From Escherichia phage E212: 38,252 bases of DNA. Location: the sequence record MZ043897.1. One strand, given 5' to 3'. The position numbers and the translations under genes are program-made. Shown here in pieces: positions 1 to 38,252 of this stretch; within the stretch, counting starts at the first letter, position 1; the number at the start of each line of letters is the position of its first letter. Under the pieces are notes generated by a model, which ran no database searches, was not told where the DNA came from, and worked only from the letters and a program-made list of their open reading frames with translations.

Positions 1-489
1 TTATTTGATAAGAAGTGAAGGTTTCCCAACTTTGAGTTGAGCGCCGGGGATATTTATTCCTGCTTTTAGTTGGTGTTTGATTGCCAGTTTGTCGGCTTTA
101 ATTGTCGTTTCAAACTCAACGTATTCAGGAGGAATGGCGCTTGAGTCGATGATTTCTACAATTTCTGACGGTTTGCGGATTGTTACCTGGTGAATACCTG
201 CTCGAATATTTTTCTTGCCAACCATTTCAAGCGATGACGCTATATATGATTTGATGCTGTCAATCTTATTTTGAATTACTGCGGCTCGCTCATTCAGCGA
301 CTTTGCCTCGTCCTTGAGGCGTTCAGCATAACCAGATTCATTTTTAATAATGGCAAGAAGTTGCTCTATTTTATCGGTAAATTCTCCTTCCATGCCTTCT
401 ATTGTGTCAGCAATCATCTCTGGCTCTAAATCTGAATCCATCAGCTTTGCGTATTCATTGGCTATTTCATACAGTTTGCTCACTGGCAA
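1..489 (-). CDS. Putative DNA-end-binding host-nuclease inhibitor (Mu Gam-like / Gp157-like), recombination module
   Basis: Complete 162-aa ORF with stop at 1-3; coiled-coil-like N-terminal half and a C-terminal region resembling Gam-type end-binding proteins; start overlaps the recT 3' end on the same strand. Confidence 0.4.
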   Translation of the reverse strand: MPVSKLYEIANEYAKLMDSDLEPEMIADTIEGMEGEFTDKIEQLLAIIKNESGYAERLKDEAKSLNERAAVIQNKIDSIKSYIASSLEMVGKKNIRAGIHQVTIRKPSEIVEIIDSSAIPPEYVEFETTIKADKLAIKHQLKAGINIPGAQLKVGKPSLLIK

Positions 490-1369
490 CCTCCAGTTTC
501 GCTTTGCATTCTATGTAAATGGCTTGTACGTTCTGCTGCAATTTCATTCCAGATGTCAGGCGATATGCTTCTGCAAAATATCGCTTCAAATCATCCATGT
601 TTTCTGCCTGAGCCATTTCATCGCAAAGAAGTTGTGCTTTATCCATTATTTCCTGCTGGAGTTTCCGTTCATCTTCGCGGATATCTTCCTCTGATTTGTG
701 CGGCATAACTGGTTCCTGATGCATACCTTCATCTTCGTTAAGCAGGTGAATGGCATTATCCAGTCGCTGGGCTTTAGGCCAGTATTTGCTGGCGCGTTTA
801 ACTATTGTTTTACGCGCCATCTCTTCCCAGAATGTTTTCCACGGTCCATTCTTTGCCTTGCTCGTTGCTTCCACTGCTTTAATTTCTGCCAGACTCATTT
901 CTTCAGTCAGGTAGTCACCATCTGCTGTTTTTACCGTGCAATAACCACCAACAATAGAGCCTCGCTCTCCAAATGCGTTGTATTTGTGAGTTGGTGCTGA
1001 ATCAAGGCCATTTGATTCATAGGTGTCGTTTGAGTACACCAGTTTGCATTGCCCCCACTTAATTGAGCCTGTCGATTGCGCAAGATGAAGTAATCCCATA
1101 TAGCTGATATCAAGGCAAACCATGCCGTCGCGCGGAACTAGATAAGCAAGTTTGCTGGCCGGGTTTAAGGTGATGCCGATCGCCGCAACATTGATGATGG
1201 CGTTCTGTGCGCTGGTTGGATTTGCCAGTGCCGTTTTAGCCAGGTAATCGTTTTTCTGGAAATACTGAATTGCAAACTGGCTTTCCTTAGCCCATGTCAC
1301 CGTCTGTTCAGTCAATGCTCCGCAGAATAACTGCTCCTGCTGTTTAACGAATTCAACGATATTGCTCAT
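467..1369 (-). CDS. recT: RecT-family single-strand annealing recombinase
   Basis: 300-aa ORF; C-terminal segment GPWKTFWEEMARKTIVKRASKYWP matches the conserved RecT motif (E. coli RecT GPWVTHWEEMAKKTAIRRLFKYLP). Confidence 0.85.
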   Translation of the reverse strand: MSNIVEFVKQQEQLFCGALTEQTVTWAKESQFAIQYFQKNDYLAKTALANPTSAQNAIINVAAIGITLNPASKLAYLVPRDGMVCLDISYMGLLHLAQSTGSIKWGQCKLVYSNDTYESNGLDSAPTHKYNAFGERGSIVGGYCTVKTADGDYLTEEMSLAEIKAVEATSKAKNGPWKTFWEEMARKTIVKRASKYWPKAQRLDNAIHLLNEDEGMHQEPVMPHKSEEDIREDERKLQQEIMDKAQLLCDEMAQAENMDDLKRYFAEAYRLTSGMKLQQNVQAIYIECKAKLEVASEQTV

Positions 1370-1677
1370 GCTGCTTCTCCAAAAATGTGTCTGCGCTTGA
1401 ATATTGCGAAGGCATATTCAGCCTTAACTCTTTCGGTTATTGCATCCCAGAACCATTCAGCGGCTTTTTCCTGATAGTTACAGTCATCATCTTCCAGCCA
1501 GTCGATAGCGTCCTTAGTGTGTTCATCTGGTTTATATGAGCGAAGCATTTCGCTTATTGGGTCGCAACGTTTGCAGAGGCGATCAACTTCACTGTTGATT
1601 CGTTCGTAATCTTCATCAGTAAAACTTGCGATTATTTGCGATATTTCACGCTTATCATTCAGAGTCAGAATCATCAT
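1366..1677 (-). CDS. Hypothetical early protein (103 aa), overlaps recT start
   Basis: ORF on the same strand whose stop overlaps the recT start by 4 nt; no recognisable domain. Confidence 0.5.
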   Translation of the reverse strand: MMILTLNDKREISQIIASFTDEDYERINSEVDRLCKRCDPISEMLRSYKPDEHTKDAIDWLEDDDCNYQEKAAEWFWDAITERVKAEYAFAIFKRRHIFGEAA

Positions 1678-1762
1678 CTTTCTCCTGTTCTTTGTGCTGA
1701 TTGAGCATTTTGTTCATCTGACGAATGAATTCTTCGTCTGACCAGTTATCCGTAAAACTCAT
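1655..1762 (-). CDS. Hypothetical small acidic protein (35 aa)
   Basis: ATG at 1762 overlaps the stop of the cIII-like ORF (ATGA); reads MSFTDNWSDEEFIRQMNKMLNQHKEQEKDDDSDSE; 3' end overlaps the next ORF by 23 nt; below the ORF-track size cutoff. Confidence 0.25.
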   Translation of the reverse strand: MSFTDNWSDEEFIRQMNKMLNQHKEQEKDDDSDSE

Positions 1763-1929
1763 GGACGGCCTTGTTGTTTCAAAATATCCCAAAGCTTTTC
1801 GAGCAAACTTTTCATTCTTGGTTGTTTAAAGTCTGCTCCGGTTAAAATATTTTTTCGTGAATGCTGTACCGATAAAATCGGGTTGAAAGGGCGAACCGAT
1901 GCCGCCCCTGCAATAGCGAACTGTTGCAT
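1759..1929 (-). CDS. cIII-like small regulatory protein (tentative)
   Basis: 56-aa ORF starting MQQFAIAG (lambda CIII starts MQYAIAG) with a C-terminal SLLEKLWDILKQQG segment resembling the CIII helix; strong RBS AAGGAG 6 nt upstream; internal Met of track ORF 1759..2034. Confidence 0.4.
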   Translation of the reverse strand: MQQFAIAGAASVRPFNPILSVQHSRKNILTGADFKQPRMKSLLEKLWDILKQQGRP

Positions 1930-1995
1930 AGGATGCTCCTTCTGTTTGATTGCATAACGAAAACGCCTCGAGTGAAGCGTTATTGGTATGCATAT

Positions 1996-2019
1996 AAAAA
2001 GGCCCCCACATCGGAGGGC
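1996..2019 (-). terminator. Intrinsic terminator candidate (tL1-like) between N and the cIII-like gene
   Basis: On the minus strand GCCCUC-CGAUGU-GGGGGC (6-bp stem with one G-U pair) followed by CUUUUUAUAU. Confidence 0.45.
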
Positions 2020-2236
2020 AAAGAAGATTTCCAATAATCAGAACAAGTCGGCTCCTGTTTAGTTACGAGCGACATTGCTCCGTGTATTCACTCGTTGGAA
2101 TGAATACACAGTGCAGTGTTTATTCTGTTGTTTATGCCAAAGATAAAGGCCACTATCAGGCAGCTTTGTTGTTCTGTTTACCAAGTTCTCTGGCAATCAT
2201 TGCCGCCGCTTGAATTGTCCACACCATTGATTTTTA

Positions 2237-3093: not shown

Positions 3094-3951
3094 TTATCGT
3101 TTATTTCTTTGATGTTTCTTTGCAGACTCAGCTTGAGTGTTTCCATACCTGCGTTTACCGCTATTGTTTTTTCCTCTAGGCTTGCCTTTTTTTCGATCTT
3201 CCCACCAGTCAGGTGCCGGGTCTGGCTCAACATGTAAAGCATCGGCAAGTCCTGATATCAAGCTGTATGACTGAACTCCATCAATGTGCTCTGACAGTGA
3301 TGGGGTAACATTCTGTCTTAGTGGATCAAGAATAAAATCAATACCTTTAATTCTGGCGTGTTTGGCGGCAGGCACAAAGTCTGAGTCCCCAGCAACAAGG
3401 ACAATTACATCAACAAGTTTTTCATAAGCTAAAGTCGTGATATCCATCCCTAGCTTGATATCAACTTGTTTTTGTTTGATGTCATAGTAAAAATCATCAT
3501 TTGTCAGTTCATCCCATTTTTTCGTTCCTTTCATCAGAGCATCAAGGGAGAATGTAGTTAGTTGCCATCGCTTATTATCAACAAGATTCCCTAATCTTAA
3601 GGCTGTTTTTCGAGTTTTTCTTAACTCTTCATGCAGCTCCGTTCTCAGAATATATGATTTTTCGAGTTTGAAATTCTTGCGACCAGGCGTCTTATTGCCA
3701 GGCTCAGGAAGTGGAAGGCGTGTTTGAATGTCGAGTGGTGGACAGTCATAGAAGTAAATTCTATAAAGCTCAAGCGGTTCCCTACGTTCTTGTGATTGAC
3801 GTTTTCCATTAAGATGGGAAAGAACCATTGACCATATTACTTTCATTATGCATTGCGCAGTCAGTTCATGCTCGGCGAAGTGTTTACGATGCGTAGCATG
3901 AACACGCTGCATGAAAAAACCCGCATCAATTAAAATTGCTGCTTTCTTCAT
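3094..3951 (-). CDS. NYN/LabA-like (PIN-like) domain protein with basic C-terminal tail; putative nuclease in the rexAB position
   Basis: 285-aa ORF; N-terminal AAILIDAGFF and downstream IVLVAGDSDFVPAAK motifs are typical of NYN/LabA-like domains; Lys/Arg-rich C-terminal 40 aa; immediately downstream of cI on the same strand. Confidence 0.6.
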   Translation of the reverse strand: MKKAAILIDAGFFMQRVHATHRKHFAEHELTAQCIMKVIWSMVLSHLNGKRQSQERREPLELYRIYFYDCPPLDIQTRLPLPEPGNKTPGRKNFKLEKSYILRTELHEELRKTRKTALRLGNLVDNKRWQLTTFSLDALMKGTKKWDELTNDDFYYDIKQKQVDIKLGMDITTLAYEKLVDVIVLVAGDSDFVPAAKHARIKGIDFILDPLRQNVTPSLSEHIDGVQSYSLISGLADALHVEPDPAPDWWEDRKKGKPRGKNNSGKRRYGNTQAESAKKHQRNKR

Positions 3952-7419: not shown

Positions 7420-7492
7420 CCATCTACATTACTGAGCTAATAACAGGCCTGCTGGTAATCGCAGGCCTTTTTATTTGGGGGAGAGGGAAGTC

Positions 7493-7933
7493 ATGAAAAA
7501 ACTAACCTTTGAAATTCGATCTCCAGCACATCAGCAAAACGCTATTCACGCAGTACAGCAAATCCTTCCAGACCCAACCAAACCAATCGTAGTAACCATT
7601 CAGGAGCGCAACCGCAGCTTAGACCAAAATCGGAAGCTTTGGGCTTGCCTTGGTGACGTTTCGCGTCAGGTTGAATGGCATGGTCGCTGGCTGGATGCAG
7701 AAAGCTGGAAGTGTGTGTTTACCGCAGCATTAAAGCAGCAGGATGTTGTTCCTAACCTTGCCGGGAATGGCTTTGTGGTAATAGGCCAGTCAACCAGCAG
7801 GATGCGTGTAAACGAATTTGCGGAGCTATTAGAGCTTATACAGGCATTCGGTACAGAGCGTGGCGTTAAGTGGTCAGACGAAGCGAGACTGGCTCTGGAG
7901 TGGAAAGCGAGATGGGGAGATCGGGCTGCATGA
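7493..7933 (+). CDS. ninB: NinB (Orf-family recombination protein)
   Basis: Starts MKKLTFEIRSPAHQQNAIHAVQQ..., matching lambda NinB; internal Met of track ORF 7475..7933. Confidence 0.9.
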   Translation: MKKLTFEIRSPAHQQNAIHAVQQILPDPTKPIVVTIQERNRSLDQNRKLWACLGDVSRQVEWHGRWLDAESWKCVFTAALKQQDVVPNLAGNGFVVIGQSTSRMRVNEFAELLELIQAFGTERGVKWSDEARLALEWKARWGDRAA

Positions 7934-9203: not shown

Positions 9204-9918
9204 GTTAATAAATGGCAATGCCATCAAAATGACAAGCATTGAAATCGCTGAGTTGGTGGGTAAGCGTCATGACAATGTGAAACGTACCATCGAAACGCTG
9301 GCTAAAAATGGTGTTATCCGGCTTCCTCAAATTGAGGTTTCCGAAAGAATCAATAACTTAGGGTTCAATGTTCAGTACGAGCATTACGTCTTCGAAGGCG
9401 AACAAGGTAAGCGAGATAGTATTGTTGTTGTTGCCCAGTTGTCGCCAGAGTTCACCGCTCGCCTTGTTGACCGCTGGCGAGAGCTTGAAGAAACTGCGGC
9501 TAATATCCCCAAAACGCTACCAGAAGCGTTGCGCCTTGCTGCTGATCTTGCTGAGCAGAAAATGCAACTGGAAAACCAGCTCGCAATTGCCGCACCTAAA
9601 GTTGAGTTTGCCGATCGCGTTGGCGAGGCCAGCGGAATTTTGATTGGAAACTTTGCAAAGGTTGTTGGAATTGGTCAAAACAAACTGTTTGCGTGGATGC
9701 GCGATCACAAAATCCTTATTGCTTCAGGTTCCCGGCGCAATGTGCCAATGCAGGAATATATGGATCGCGGCTATTTCACAGTGAAAGAAACAGCGGTCAA
9801 TACAAATCACGGAATACAGATATCGTTCACCACAAAAATCACCGGGCGTGGCCAACAGTGGCTGACCAGAAAGCTGCTCGATAACGGAATGCTGAAAGTA
9901 ACAGGGGAGGCTGCTTAA
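9196..9918 (+). CDS. Antirepressor-like protein (Rha-type N-terminus, Ant/KilAC-type C-terminus; Roi-like)
   Basis: 240-aa ORF; N-terminal SIEIAELVGKRHDNVKRTIETL resembles the phage Rha/regulatory N-domain; C-terminal half resembles antirepressor domains; nin-region location as for HK022 Roi. Confidence 0.6.
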   Translation: MNELINGNAIKMTSIEIAELVGKRHDNVKRTIETLAKNGVIRLPQIEVSERINNLGFNVQYEHYVFEGEQGKRDSIVVVAQLSPEFTARLVDRWRELEETAANIPKTLPEALRLAADLAEQKMQLENQLAIAAPKVEFADRVGEASGILIGNFAKVVGIGQNKLFAWMRDHKILIASGSRRNVPMQEYMDRGYFTVKETAVNTNHGIQISFTTKITGRGQQWLTRKLLDNGMLKVTGEAA

Positions 9919-10208
9919 TGGCCAATCTACGCAAAGAAGCACGCGGCAGAGAATGTCAGGTACGTATTTACGGCGTATGCAATGGCAATCCTGAAACTAC
10001 AGTTCTGGCACATTACCGGATGGCTGGAATTTGCGGAACGGGAATGAAGCCTGACGACCTGATCGGCGCATGGGCTTGTAGCGCGTGTCACGATGAAATC
10101 GACCGACGCACCCATAATCTCGACAACAAAGACGCCAGACTTTACCACCTCGAAGGCGTGATCAGGACGCAGGCGATACTGCTGAAGGAGGGGAAGATTA
10201 AGCCATGA
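9918..10208 (+). CDS. YbcO-like (DUF1364) Cys/His-rich nin-region nuclease-like protein
   Basis: 96-aa ORF resembling DLP12 YbcO (RECQVRIYGVCNGNPETTVLAHYR...CSACHDEIDRR). Confidence 0.7.
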   Translation: MANLRKEARGRECQVRIYGVCNGNPETTVLAHYRMAGICGTGMKPDDLIGAWACSACHDEIDRRTHNLDNKDARLYHLEGVIRTQAILLKEGKIKP

Positions 10209-10567
10209 ACGAATATCAGTTTGTGCTTCCTTACCCGCCGTCGGTGAATACCTACTGGCGAAGACGGGGAAGCCAATACTACATCAGCGATAAAGGCCAG
10301 AAATACCGAAAAGACGTTCAGCAAATCATTCGCCAACTCAAGTTAGACATTTTCACCAAATCACGAGTCCGTATCAAAGTCATCGCAGACGTTCCAGACT
10401 CCCGCCGCCGCGACCTCGACAACATCCTGAAAGGTTTACTCGACTCCCTTATCCACGCCGGATTTGCGGAAGACGACGAGCAATTCGATGACATTCGCGT
10501 AATTCGTGGTGTGAAAGTACCAGGCGGAAGGCTTGGAATAAAAATCACCGAACTGGAGAACGTATGA
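10205..10567 (+). CDS. rusA: RusA-family Holliday junction resolvase
   Basis: 120-aa ORF with PYPPSVN...RRRDLDN...DD motifs matching RusA. Confidence 0.85.
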   Translation: MNEYQFVLPYPPSVNTYWRRRGSQYYISDKGQKYRKDVQQIIRQLKLDIFTKSRVRIKVIADVPDSRRRDLDNILKGLLDSLIHAGFAEDDEQFDDIRVIRGVKVPGGRLGIKITELENV

Positions 10568-37514: not shown

Positions 37515-38111
37515 TCACTCTCCTTTGATGCGAATGCCAGCGTCAGACATCATATGCAGATACTCAACTGCATCCTGAACCCATTGACCGCCAATCCCGT
37601 AATAGCGATGCGTAATGATGTCGATAGTTACTAACGGGTCTTGTTCGATTAACTTCCGCAGAAACTCTTCCAGGTCACCAGTGCAGTGCTTGATGACAGG
37701 AGTTTTCCCAGGATGGCGAACAACAAGAAACTGATTTCCGACTTCACGGACTTCGTTGCTTTCCAGTTCTGCAATGCGCTTTTTTGCTGCTTCCAGTTCA
37801 TCCAGTAATTCCAGCACGGTAGCCGGATTAGCCTTGGCAACAAAATCCCGGACTGGCTTACAATCAATCTCCGCAATGGGTTGATACGATGTGTAGCCAT
37901 GCTGTCTTGTATAGCTACCGTGACGAATAACGAAAAAATCACCATTTATTTTTTTAGCCTGCCACTTATCTTCACCGGCTTTCTCTGCCTTTTCACGCAG
38001 TGCCTGATAGTCAATCTTGTTCACTTTCTTCTGCGGAGAACTTACCGAAAAGTGATACTTCGGCTCTTGTCCAGCGTCTTCCACGAAGTCGGCTAACAAT
38101 GTCAGCGCCAA
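37515..38111 (-). CDS. Hypothetical early protein with central coiled-coil (Ea22-like?)
   Basis: 198-aa ORF; segment ATVLELLDELEAAKKRIAELE resembles the coiled-coil motif of Ea22-like prophage proteins; the true start may be the GTG at 38023. Confidence 0.45.
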   Translation of the reverse strand: MALTLLADFVEDAGQEPKYHFSVSSPQKKVNKIDYQALREKAEKAGEDKWQAKKINGDFFVIRHGSYTRQHGYTSYQPIAEIDCKPVRDFVAKANPATVLELLDELEAAKKRIAELESNEVREVGNQFLVVRHPGKTPVIKHCTGDLEEFLRKLIEQDPLVTIDIITHRYYGIGGQWVQDAVEYLHMMSDAGIRIKGE

Positions 38112-38241
38112 TCCTTGTTGCTTTCGCCATTACTGCTTTTTCAGTCCTTTCCAGTTTTTCAGCGATAACTTCAACTGGCATTGTCGCCGCTACTTCGCGC
38201 AAGAAATCGACTTCCCATTTCTCCCATGGAGTCTTTTTCAT
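38011..38241 (-). CDS. Hypothetical small protein (76 aa)
   Basis: ORF overlapping the annotated 5' end of the next gene by 100 nt; which of the two is real there is unresolved. Confidence 0.35.
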   Translation of the reverse strand: MKKTPWEKWEVDFLREVAATMPVEVIAEKLERTEKAVMAKATRIGADIVSRLRGRRWTRAEVSLFGKFSAEESEQD

Positions 38242-38252
38242 AGTCGATACCG

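What the first reader, a model, noticed from the sequence alone, without database searches (positions are those of the whole stretch)
1..1762. RecT recombination module without a recognisable exonuclease partner
Four to five ORFs are chained by overlapping stop/start codons (35 aa, 103 aa, RecT, Gam-like 162 aa). No RecE or lambda-Exo-like nuclease is adjacent on either side, including across the wrap-around. The flanking small proteins may supply anti-RecBCD or accessory functions, or the exonuclease is absent.
Basis: partly seen in the sequence, partly recalled or inferred. Interest (0 to 1): 0.4.

Follow-up and report, generated by a model that had tools for sequence, protein, structure and literature searches.

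The report
Known nuclease-less RecT phage recombination module
This is the ordinary, already catalogued recombination cassette of HK140-type lambdoid E. coli phages, in which a RecT annealing protein is paired with a Mu-Gam-like DNA-end protector instead of an exonuclease.

Summary
On the minus strand, cIII, a 35-aa ORF, a 103-aa ORF, RecT (PF03837) and a Sipho_Gp157 protein are chained by overlapping stops and starts. No lambda-Exo/YqaJ or RecE/DUF3799 nuclease was detected in the early regions of the window, including across the wrap-around, which is real.

It is not new. The module is 92.9% identical in DNA to phage HK140 and occurs in 264 of 5,426 complete E. coli genomes. Zheng et al. 2025 (PMC12315714) describe HK140 as carrying this RecT type with MuGam, no nuclease and no SSB. 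They also report that 84 of 246 lambdoid Rec modules lack a nuclease.

- The RecT C-terminal ~80 residues switch with the downstream partner. RecTs followed by Gp157 share one tail. Same-core RecTs followed by lambda Exo carry the Bet-type Exo-binding tail.
- The 103-aa ORF sits in the slot held by lambda Gam or phi80 GamL in sister modules. It also heads RecT+Exo and RecE modules elsewhere.
- The next ORF across the wrap belongs to the P22 Abc1 family and is truncated here by a 1.1-kb deletion.

Verdict: real, ordinary, already known.

The parts
1759..1929 (-). cIII gene, the upstream neighbour. Its TGA stop overlaps the ATG of the 35-aa ORF.
   Evidence: phrog_550 'CIII anti-termination' E=1e-22. 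Annotated as cIII in HK140. ATGA overlap read.
1655..1762 (-). 35-aa ORF, a possible Arf-like recombination cofactor. Not annotated by PGAP or in HK140.
   Evidence: phrog_17766 E=1e-15. 38% identity over 21 aa to P22 Arf around the shared motif SDEEFI, pairwise E=0.002. A homologue sits at the same position in L010.
1366..1677 (-). 103-aa all-helical protein, translationally coupled to RecT by an ATGA overlap. It occupies the Gam/GamL slot of the module; its function is unproven.
   Evidence: phrog_3486 E=4e-59, no Pfam hit. The AF2 model has four helices, pLDDT 75. In sister modules the same slot holds lambda Gam or phi80 GamL. The family also heads RecT+Exo, RecE+RecT and RecE-like+SSB-like modules (SSB-like per Zheng et al.).
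719..1369 (-). RecT annealing core, residues 1-217.
   Evidence: PF03837 E=3e-33 over residues 31-214. phrog_148 E=3e-91. PDB LiRecT 7UB2 E=7e-5. 57% identity to the phi80 Rec core.
470..718 (-). RecT C-terminal domain, residues 218-300. It is partner-specific and is inferred to be the Gp157-interaction domain.
   Evidence: Conserved at 49-96% in about 20 RecTs that are followed by Gp157. Replaced by a lambda Bet-type tail (51-74% identical to Bet 180-261) in phi80, ENT47670 and Midgardsormr38, where lambda-Exo-type nucleases follow.
1..483 (-). Sipho_Gp157 protein, a Mu-Gam-like putative dsDNA-end binder and RecBCD blocker. It stands where an exonuclease would be.
   Evidence: PF05565 E=2e-37; phrog_253 'Mu Gam-like end protection' E=2e-53. 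hhalign to a Mu Gam profile E=9e-4 with collinear C-terminal domains. AF2 model: long helices plus a small beta domain, pLDDT 80. The HK140 orthologue is classed as MuGam in PMC12315714.
38011..38241 (-). P22 Abc1-family ('D5-like') ORF directly downstream of Gp157 across the wrap-around. It is 76 aa here instead of 104.
   Evidence: phrog_323 E=2e-16. P22 Abc1 hits the same PHROG at E=1e-23 and Mu gp9 at E=5e-29. Identical to HK140 gp39 for its first 72 residues. A 1,110-bp deletion relative to ETEC1747 removes its 3' end.
7475..7933 (+). NinB (Orf-family recombination mediator) in the nin region, not adjacent to the module.
   Evidence: PF05772 E=1e-54.
9918..10567 (+). YbcO putative nuclease (9918-10208) and RusA Holliday-junction resolvase (10205-10567). 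These are junction-processing functions, not resection exonucleases.
   Evidence: PF07102 E=2e-44. PF05866 E=6e-17.

Best explanation
This is the homologous-recombination (Rec) module of the early-left (pL) operon of a P22/HK620-like lambdoid E. coli phage, of the HK140 sequence type. Its parts are an SSAP (RecT), a Mu-Gam-like protein (Sipho_Gp157) and small accessory proteins: an Arf-like 35-aa ORF, a 103-aa ORF in the Gam slot, and a truncated Abc1-family ORF. It has no phage-encoded exonuclease and no SSB.

Shown here:
- the gene identities;
- the translational coupling;
- the absence of a detectable nuclease;
- conservation of the RecT-Gp157 pair across enterobacterial genera.

Inferred mechanism:
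- Gp157 dimers bind the ends of linear phage DNA, that is, the injected terminally redundant genome and rolling-circle tails. There they exclude RecBCD, as Mu Gam does.
- RecT is recruited through its module-specific C-terminal domain. It anneals complementary single strands to circularise the genome and support recombination-dependent replication.
- The single-stranded DNA comes from host functions or replication intermediates, not from a dedicated phage exonuclease. P22 (Erf + Abc) and HK620 also lack a phage nuclease.
- NinB, YbcO and RusA elsewhere in the genome provide mediator and junction-resolution steps.
For: Identities:
- RecT PF03837, Gp157 PF05565 and phrog_253.

Same module elsewhere:
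- 92-100% DNA identity in viable phages HK140, mEpX1, Gally and Kapi1, and in 264 E. coli genomes.

Literature (PMC12315714):
- HK140 = SAP-4 with MuGam, no nuclease, no SSB.
- 84 of 246 Rec modules lack a nuclease.
- The P22 functional class (anti-RecBCD + SAP only) has 46 members.
- P22 and HK620 modules encode no nuclease.

Conservation:
- Of 18 enterobacterial-type Gp157 loci that retain upstream sequence, 17 have a RecT ORF directly upstream, usually overlapping Gp157. One of these has an HNH gene inserted between the two, and in L024 the RecT ORF ends early. In the 18th locus an IS transposase sits there.

No nuclease:
- Pfam scans of window ORFs.
- phmmer at E<=1 against 1,736 ORFs from the window and 25 loci.
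- Pfam scans of the large neighbouring ORFs.

Gp157 and Mu Gam:
- hhalign E=9e-4 over the C-terminal domain.
- 3 of 21 members touch PF07352.
- An Abc1/gp9-family gene neighbours both Mu gam and this gene.

RecT tail and partner:
- Strict co-variation of the RecT C-terminal domain with the downstream partner.
- The Bet tail is the known Exo-binding domain (PMC6393309).

Chi sites:
- None in the window, in line with anti-RecBCD-encoding phages (Table 1).
Against: - The tail-partner correlation could reflect simple linkage, because the two coding regions abut.
- If Gp157 blocks all end-processing, as Mu Gam does, the source of single strands for RecT is unexplained.
- The Abc1-family gene is truncated in this window, so this copy of the module may be partly impaired.
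- Zero Chi sites is not statistically meaningful; about 0.5 per strand is expected.
Confidence: 0.8

Rival explanations
1. Gp157 is itself a very divergent PD-(D/E)XK-type exonuclease. On this view the module is a conventional SSAP + exonuclease pair in disguise.
For: - The secondary-structure order in the AF2 model (long helix, three strands, further strands, helix, strands) loosely recalls the alpha-beta-beta-beta-alpha-beta nuclease core.
- Foldseek against BFVD gave weak matches: a PD-(D/E)XK domain protein of Tsukamurella phage TIN4 (E=0.02), and YqaJ/COG5377 and RecB-like exonucleases (E=0.6-0.8).
- Gp157 occupies the gene position that Exo holds in phi80, ENT47670 and Midgardsormr38.
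Against: - In 143 diverse family members the only positions conserved at 90% or more are L4, K38, Y80, K132, G142 and G147. There is no invariant acidic catalytic pair.
- No Pfam nuclease family is hit.
- The best remote relative is non-catalytic Mu Gam.
- The Foldseek nuclease hits are not significant.
- At 160 aa, more than half of it coiled coil, the protein is small for such a nuclease.
Confidence: 0.05
2. The exonuclease has simply been lost. The window would then be a decaying prophage whose recombination module is a non-functional remnant.
For: - The window carries a 1,110-bp deletion relative to the ETEC1747 prophage that truncates the Abc1-family gene.
- A ral pseudogene is annotated in the near-identical prophage.
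Against: - The same nuclease-less arrangement is present in phages isolated as viable particles: HK140, mEpX1, Kapi1, Gally, Dewey and Louie.
- It is present in about 20 loci from more than 10 enterobacterial genera, mostly with intact, overlapping reading frames.
- Protein identity is maintained at 57-96%.
- RecT carries a dedicated non-Bet C-terminal domain rather than an orphaned Exo-binding one.
Confidence: 0.05
3. The module redirects a host nuclease, as P22 Abc2 does, rather than merely excluding it. The 103-aa protein or the Abc1-family protein would convert RecBCD, or recruit RecJ or ExoI, into the resection activity that feeds RecT. Gp157 would play a secondary protective role.
For: - The phage backbone is P22-like, and P22 uses Erf + Abc1/Abc2 with no phage nuclease.
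- An Abc1-family gene is present.
- The 103-aa gene is translationally coupled to RecT and travels with several SSAP and nuclease combinations.
Against: - No Abc2 homologue (phrog_656) is present. The 103-aa protein shows no similarity to Abc1, Abc2 or Arf.
- In sister modules the 103-aa slot is filled by lambda Gam or GamL, which inhibit RecBCD rather than reprogramme it.
- The Abc1-family gene is truncated here.
Confidence: 0.1

Closest known systems
Rec module of phages HK140 and mEpX1 (SAP type 4 + MuGam, no nuclease, no SSB; Zheng et al. 2025, PMC12315714)
   Same: Same genes in the same order: cIII, 103-aa, RecT, Gp157, D5/Abc1-like. 92.6-92.9% DNA identity over window 1-2100. The 103-aa protein is 99% identical.
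   Different: RecT core 85% and C-terminal domain 96% identical to HK140. The window's Abc1-family gene is truncated to 76 aa by a 1.1-kb deletion.
P22 recombination region (arf-erf-abc1-abc2)
   Same: Same operon position between cIII/kil and the ea genes. No phage exonuclease. SSAP plus anti-RecBCD logic. An Abc1-family gene and a weakly Arf-like small ORF are shared.
   Different: The SSAP is RecT rather than Erf. The anti-RecBCD component is a Mu-Gam-like end binder rather than the RecC-binding Abc2. There is no Abc2 homologue.
Lambda Red (gam-bet-exo) and phi80 (gamL-rec-exo)
   Same: Same gene order: small protein, SSAP, partner. The phi80 Rec core is 57% identical to the window RecT.
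   Different: The third gene there is a YqaJ-type exonuclease, and the SSAP carries the Bet-type Exo-binding C-terminal domain. Here the third gene is Gp157 and the C-terminal domain is unrelated.
Phage Mu gp9-Gam pair
   Same: A Gam-like protein sits next to an Abc1/D5-like (phrog_323) small protein. Inferred end protection against RecBCD.
   Different: Mu has no SSAP next to Gam. Gp157 is a separate Pfam family (PF05565 versus PF07352) with only a remote sequence link. Gene order is reversed (gp9 upstream of gam).
Gp157/Gam-like genes next to erf or sak4 in Firmicutes phages (PMC8093625)
   Same: The same Gp157 family, adjacent to a recombinase, in modules that often lack an exonuclease.
   Different: There it lies upstream of Erf or Sak4, with an SSB. 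Here it lies downstream of RecT, overlapping its stop codon, with no SSB.

Membership tests
RecT/Redbeta SSAP family (PF03837) | RecT domain scoring above the Pfam gathering threshold | tested here: met
   115.4 bits against a cutoff of 24, E=3e-33, residues 31-214. phrog_148 E=3e-91. LiRecT 7UB2 E=7e-5.
RecT/Redbeta SSAP family (PF03837) | ATP-independent single-strand annealing activity | not testable with these tools
   Needs biochemistry or an oligo-recombineering assay.
SynExo two-component recombinase (lambda Red, RecET) | An adjacent 5'-3' exonuclease of the YqaJ/lambda Exo or RecE/DUF3799 type | tested here: not met
   No such domain by Pfam in the early-region ORFs scanned. No phmmer hit at E<=1 to lambda Exo, phi80 Exo or SEN22 DUF3799 in any window ORF of 50 aa or more.
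SynExo two-component recombinase (lambda Red, RecET) | SSAP C-terminal domain of the Exo-binding (Bet) type | tested here: not met
   Window RecT residues 218-300 have no similarity to Bet 180-261. Same-core RecTs that are paired with Exo do.
P22-type functional class of lambdoid Rec modules (anti-RecBCD + SAP, no nuclease, no SSB; Zheng et al. 2025) | SAP present, anti-RecBCD-type gene present, nuclease and SSB absent, located mid early-left operon | tested here: met
   Gene map. Class definition and the HK140 example. No SSB family was hit in any scan.
Sipho_Gp157 (PF05565) | Full-length match above the gathering threshold | tested here: met
   129 bits against a cutoff of 28.6, profile positions 1-162 of 162. 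The family has 11,843 representative clusters at E<=0.001.
Mu Gam / Ku-like end-binding proteins (PF07352) | Detectable homology to Mu Gam | tested here: inconclusive
   hhalign between a 143-sequence Gp157 profile and a Mu Gam profile: E=9e-4, probability 22%, collinear C-terminal domains with shared motifs. 3 of 21 members hit PF07352 at E about 0.009. A profile search of PDB sequences and fold searches did not recover Gam 2P2U.
Mu Gam / Ku-like end-binding proteins (PF07352) | Dimer that binds dsDNA ends and blocks RecBCD and other exonucleases | not testable with these tools
   Needs EMSA, nuclease-protection or T4 gene 2 mutant plating assays.
P22 Abc1 family (phrog_323) | Match to the family profile, and a position beside the SSAP/Gam gene | tested here: met
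   Window 76-aa ORF E=2e-16, P22 Abc1 E=1e-23, Mu gp9 E=5e-29, all to phrog_323. The window copy lacks about 28 C-terminal residues.
Lambda Gam / phi80 GamL RecBCD inhibitors (considered for the 103-aa ORF) | Sequence homology to Gam or GamL, including the N-terminal MNAY..DRIE motif that links Gam to GamL | tested here: not met
   No Pfam hit. hhalign E=0.004-0.025 with probability below 10%, over a 24-residue motif only. The N-terminal motif is absent. One HMM hit to a Gam-like ORF at E=2e-4, not reciprocated.
Lambda Gam / phi80 GamL RecBCD inhibitors (considered for the 103-aa ORF) | First gene of the Rec module, immediately upstream of the SSAP | tested here: met
   Among RecT-Gp157 loci this slot is filled by Gam (4 genome loci plus phage Dewey), by GamL (5 loci) or by the 103-aa family (6 loci plus this window and the HK140-type phages), never two at once. 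The 103-aa family has the same position in ENT47670, Midgardsormr38, phiEt88 and SEN22.

The most novel reading that the evidence does not exclude
Two linked ideas remain open.

(1) In this module a Ku/Mu-Gam-like end binder (Gp157) has physically replaced the exonuclease as RecT's docking partner. The RecT C-terminal domain would bind Gp157 in the way the Bet C-terminal domain binds lambda Exo, loading the annealase at protected DNA ends.

(2) The 103-aa protein (phrog_3486) is an unrecognised third type of Gam-like host-nuclease inhibitor. If so, HK140-type modules carry two anti-RecBCD proteins, and SEN22-, phiEt88- and ENT47670-type modules, which show no recognised anti-RecBCD gene, in fact have one.
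Probability: 0.3. Interest if true: 0.45.

Novelty: already known. Interest (0 to 1): 0.15.

Why it matters
The finding itself adds little. Nuclease-less SSAP modules are a documented and common class in lambdoid phages, and this sequence type (HK140) is named in the literature.

It has modest value for recombineering and phage biology. The partner-specific RecT C-terminal domain and the interchangeable Gam / GamL / 103-aa slot give concrete, testable handles. They bear on how SSAPs are matched to their partners and on how many distinct RecBCD countermeasures exist.

Such end-binding proteins are also reported to sensitise phages to the Gabija defence system (PMC12407980). This gives Gp157-type genes some relevance to phage-defence interplay.

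Tried and rejected
- The afdb50 fold library was unavailable.
- The homologue search with Mu Gam returned only relatives at 72% identity or more. The Mu Gam profile therefore stayed shallow, which limited hhalign.
- The 103-aa protein has no significant PDB sequence hits. It has no similarity to P22 Abc1, Abc2 or Arf. Its homologue set is narrow, 27 clusters.
- The alignment-mode Pfam survey of 57 neighbouring large ORFs showed only 25 of 43 families, so it cannot exclude a nuclease on its own. It was supplemented by a 10-protein scan and by phmmer.
- The supplementary tables of PMC12315714 are not held, so the authors' assignment for the 103-aa gene could not be checked.
- The idea that the NYN-domain ORF (3094-3951) is the missing nuclease was rejected. 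It lies in the cI-proximal rexAB/moron slot, not in the Rec module. NYN domains are, from general knowledge, associated with ribonucleases.
Full report
**What is in the window**

The window is a circularly permuted genome of a P22/HK620-like lambdoid E. coli phage. It has P22-type gp3 small terminase, portal, coat and gp10 genes, a lambda-type cI/cro/cII/O/P region, and an integrase with an AlpA-type excisionase.

The finding lies in the early-left (pL) operon, on the minus strand. In transcription order the genes are:
- N (2382-2726);
- cIII (1759-1929);
- a 35-aa ORF (1655-1762);
- a 103-aa ORF (1366-1677);
- RecT (467-1369);
- a Sipho_Gp157 protein (1-483);
- then, across the window boundary, a 76-aa ORF (38011-38241), an Ea22-family gene, several small ORFs, a DUF551 protein, xis and int.

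The boundary is an arbitrary cut. Window 38025-38252 joined to 1-600 aligns as one 100%-identical block to a prophage integrated next to sbcB in E. coli ETEC1747. The 11-nt spacer after the Gp157 stop equals that of phage HK140.

**The observation**

- ATGA overlaps at cIII/35-aa and at 103-aa/RecT;
- a 23-nt overlap at 35-aa/103-aa;
- a 17-nt overlap between the RecT stop and the most plausible Gp157 start, a GTG at 483 that lies 6 nt after GGAGG and gives 160 aa.

All four ORFs match protein families:

| ORF | Match |
|---|---|
| RecT | PF03837, E=3e-33 |
| Gp157 | PF05565, E=2e-37; phrog_253 'Mu Gam-like end protection', E=2e-53 |
| 103-aa | phrog_3486, E=4e-59 |
| 35-aa | phrog_17766, E=1e-15 |

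**Is there a hidden exonuclease?**

None was found.
- Pfam scans of 30 ORFs covering both early operons and the lysis region found no YqaJ, RecE, DUF3799 or PDDEXK domain. The only nuclease-type genes are YbcO and RusA in the nin region, plus NinB.
- phmmer with lambda Exo, phi80 Exo and the RecE-like DUF3799 nuclease of SEN22 found nothing at E<=1. The target set was 1,736 ORFs of 50 aa or more, from both strands of the window and 25 related loci.
- The 103-aa ORF models as four helices (pLDDT 75), so it cannot be a PD-(D/E)XK or DnaQ nuclease.
- Gp157 models as long helices (residues 3-88) plus a small beta domain (pLDDT 80).
- In an alignment of 143 diverse Gp157 family members, the only positions conserved at 90% or more are L4, K38, Y80, K132, G142 and G147. 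There is no conserved acidic catalytic pair.
- Weak Foldseek matches of the Gp157 model to phage PD-(D/E)XK or YqaJ proteins (E=0.02-0.8) are not significant.

**What Gp157 is**

It belongs to a very large family, with 11,843 clusters at 50% identity. In Firmicutes phages the family sits next to erf or sak4 recombinases (PMC8093625).

Its link to Mu Gam is remote but consistent:
- hhalign between deep Gp157 and Mu Gam profiles gives E=9e-4 over collinear C-terminal domains. Shared motifs are G-x5-R-x-PS-x2-V-x-I, (D/N)K-x-AI and G-x3-G-x3-K-x-G.
- 3 of 21 close relatives touch PF07352.
- The gene next to Mu gam (gp9), P22 abc1 and the ORF next to this Gp157 all belong to phrog_323.
- PDB sequence and fold searches did not recover Gam 2P2U.

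Membership in the Mu Gam family therefore stays inconclusive. Functional analogy is the working inference.

**It is already known**

Window 1-2100 is 92.9% identical to HK140 and 92.6% identical to mEpX1. It is 99.9% identical to phage EC.P3 over 93% of that stretch. The full module occurs in 264 of 5,426 complete E. coli genomes.

Zheng, Casjens, Davidson, Amundsen and Smith (Genome Res 2025, PMC12315714) analysed 325 lambdoid genomes. [quoted passage not shown] MuGam (HK140)'. They also report:
- 84 of 246 Rec modules lack a nuclease gene;
- the class with anti-RecBCD plus SAP only, whose prototype is P22, has 46 members;
- P22 and HK620 modules encode no nuclease.

**Conservation**

A scan of one genome per species found 25 Gp157 loci.
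- Twenty are enterobacterial-type sequences, and 18 of those retain sequence upstream of Gp157.
- In 17 of the 18 a RecT ORF lies directly upstream, usually overlapping the Gp157 start. One of these, in Erwinia dacicola, has an HNH gene inserted between the two, and in L024 the RecT ORF ends early (256 aa).
- In the remaining locus an IS transposase sits where RecT would be.
- Pfam scans of the larger neighbouring ORFs found methylases, Ea22, DUF551, ParA-like proteins, repressors and integrases, but no resection nuclease. One search displayed only 25 of 43 families.
- Five Dialister loci carry a distant Gp157 (35% identity) in a different context.

**Addition 1: the RecT C-terminal domain tracks the partner**

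The window RecT core (residues 1-217) is 72-96% identical in the intact Gp157-linked RecTs. It is 48-57% identical to the RecTs of phi80, ENT47670 and Midgardsormr38.

The last ~80 residues behave differently:
- About 20 RecTs followed by Gp157 (phages and genome loci) share the window-type tail, at 49-96% identity.
- The three same-core RecTs followed by a lambda-Exo-type nuclease instead carry a tail 51-74% identical to lambda Bet residues 180-261.

That Bet domain is the one crystallised bound to lambda Exo (PMC6393309). Identity of the tail to the window correlates with identity of Gp157 (r=0.79), more than core identity does (r=0.61; 13 loci).

The inference is that the tail is the Gp157-docking domain. 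Because the two coding regions abut, simple linkage remains an alternative. Zheng et al. flagged such partner-domain shuffling as likely but did not analyse it.

**Addition 2: the 103-aa ORF sits in the Gam slot**

Among RecT-Gp157 modules, the gene immediately upstream of RecT is one of three alternatives, never two together:
- a lambda Gam homologue (L006, L011, L013, L024 and phage Dewey; E=1e-31 to 1e-60);
- a phi80 GamL homologue (L007, L014, L019, L021, L025; E=1e-28 to 1e-50);
- a member of the 103-aa family (window, HK140, L008, L010, L012, L017, L018, L022).

The 103-aa family also opens modules of other composition:
- 103-aa, RecT, Exo in ENT47670 and Midgardsormr38;
- 103-aa, RecE-like, RecT in phiEt88;
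- 103-aa, RecE-like, SSB-like in SEN22, which shares the same flanking genes as the window and so represents a cassette swap.

Sequence evidence for homology to Gam is weak:
- hhalign E=0.004 over a 24-residue motif, DDDxx(F/Y)QE(R/K)AAE;
- one HMM hit to a Gam-like ORF at E=2e-4;
- no reciprocal hit;
- no N-terminal MNAY..DRIE motif.

The 103-aa ORF is therefore a positional analogue of Gam/GamL. It is not a demonstrated member of that family.

**Addition 3: accessory genes**

- The 76-aa ORF after Gp157 is a P22 Abc1-family protein (phrog_323). It is identical to HK140 gp39 for 72 residues.
- It is cut short by a 1,110-bp deletion relative to ETEC1747. The deletion also removes a DUF2737 pseudogene, an HNH endonuclease gene and a small ORF.
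- The 35-aa ORF resembles P22 Arf only weakly.

**Likely mechanism (inferred)**

Headful-packaged, terminally redundant DNA must circularise by recombination.
- Gp157 is proposed to cap the ends of linear DNA and exclude RecBCD.
- RecT, tethered by its C-terminal domain, would anneal exposed complementary strands.
- The single strands would come from host activities or replication intermediates.
- NinB, YbcO and RusA would handle mediator and junction-resolution steps.

The window has no Chi site on either strand. This agrees with the pattern for phages that encode anti-RecBCD proteins, but it is not significant at this genome size (Table 1).

**Verdict**

It is ordinary and already described. 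The residual novelty lies in the two testable inferences above: the partner-specific RecT tail and the 103-aa protein as a Gam analogue.

Noticed in passing
window 3094-3951 (-): A 285-aa NYN-domain protein (PF01936 E=7e-9; phrog_5783 E=1e-119, function unknown) lies between N and cI. This is the slot where lambda carries rexAB and other phages carry exclusion morons. It may be a prophage-expressed defence or exclusion gene.
   Followed up: partly
window 38025-38028 junction; L001 5663-6772: The window lacks 1,110 bp that are present in the otherwise near-identical ETEC1747 prophage. The deletion truncates the Abc1-family gene and removes a DUF2737 pseudogene, an HNH endonuclease gene and a small ORF. 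The two flanking alignments overlap by 4 bp.
   Followed up: yes
L004 1483-2326 (phage Mu gp9 and gam): Mu gp9, the gene immediately upstream of gam, belongs to the same PHROG (phrog_323) as P22 Abc1 and the ORF next to Gp157 here. Pairing of an Abc1-like protein with a Gam-like protein therefore recurs in unrelated phages.
   Followed up: partly
L008 5537-6004 (Candidatus Erwinia dacicola); phage Louie (H12): In L008 an HNH endonuclease gene is inserted exactly between RecT and Gp157, overlapping both, which looks like a homing-type insertion into the conserved junction. In Louie an HNH gene is annotated within the matched module region, but its exact position was not checked.
   Followed up: no
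L003 3614-5312 (Salmonella phage SEN22): SEN22 has the same flanks (the 103-aa gene at 95% protein identity, and the D5/Abc1-like gene). RecT+Gp157 is replaced there by a DUF3799 RecE-like nuclease and a 189-aa protein of unknown family (phrog_11517), which Zheng et al. class as SSB-like. This is a clean cassette swap.
   Followed up: partly
L009, L012, L018: Short contigs (1.9-5 kb) filed under Actinomycetes, Micromonospora and Streptomyces carry this enterobacterial-type RecT-Gp157 module at about 70% protein identity. They are probably assembly contamination.
   Followed up: no
L015 5103-5942; L024 5115-5885: In Pseudenterobacter timonensis an IS (rve) transposase sits where RecT should be. 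In Escherichia sp. ESNIH1 the RecT ORF ends early (256 aa) and lacks the C-terminal domain. Both look like decayed copies.
   Followed up: partly
whole window: There are no Chi (GCTGGTGG) sites on either strand; about 0.5 per strand would be expected from base composition.
   Followed up: yes
L026-L030 (Dialister spp.): Distant Gp157 homologues (35% identity) lie upstream of conserved 362-aa, 161-aa and 684-aa ORFs. This is a different, uncharacterised module context.
   Followed up: no
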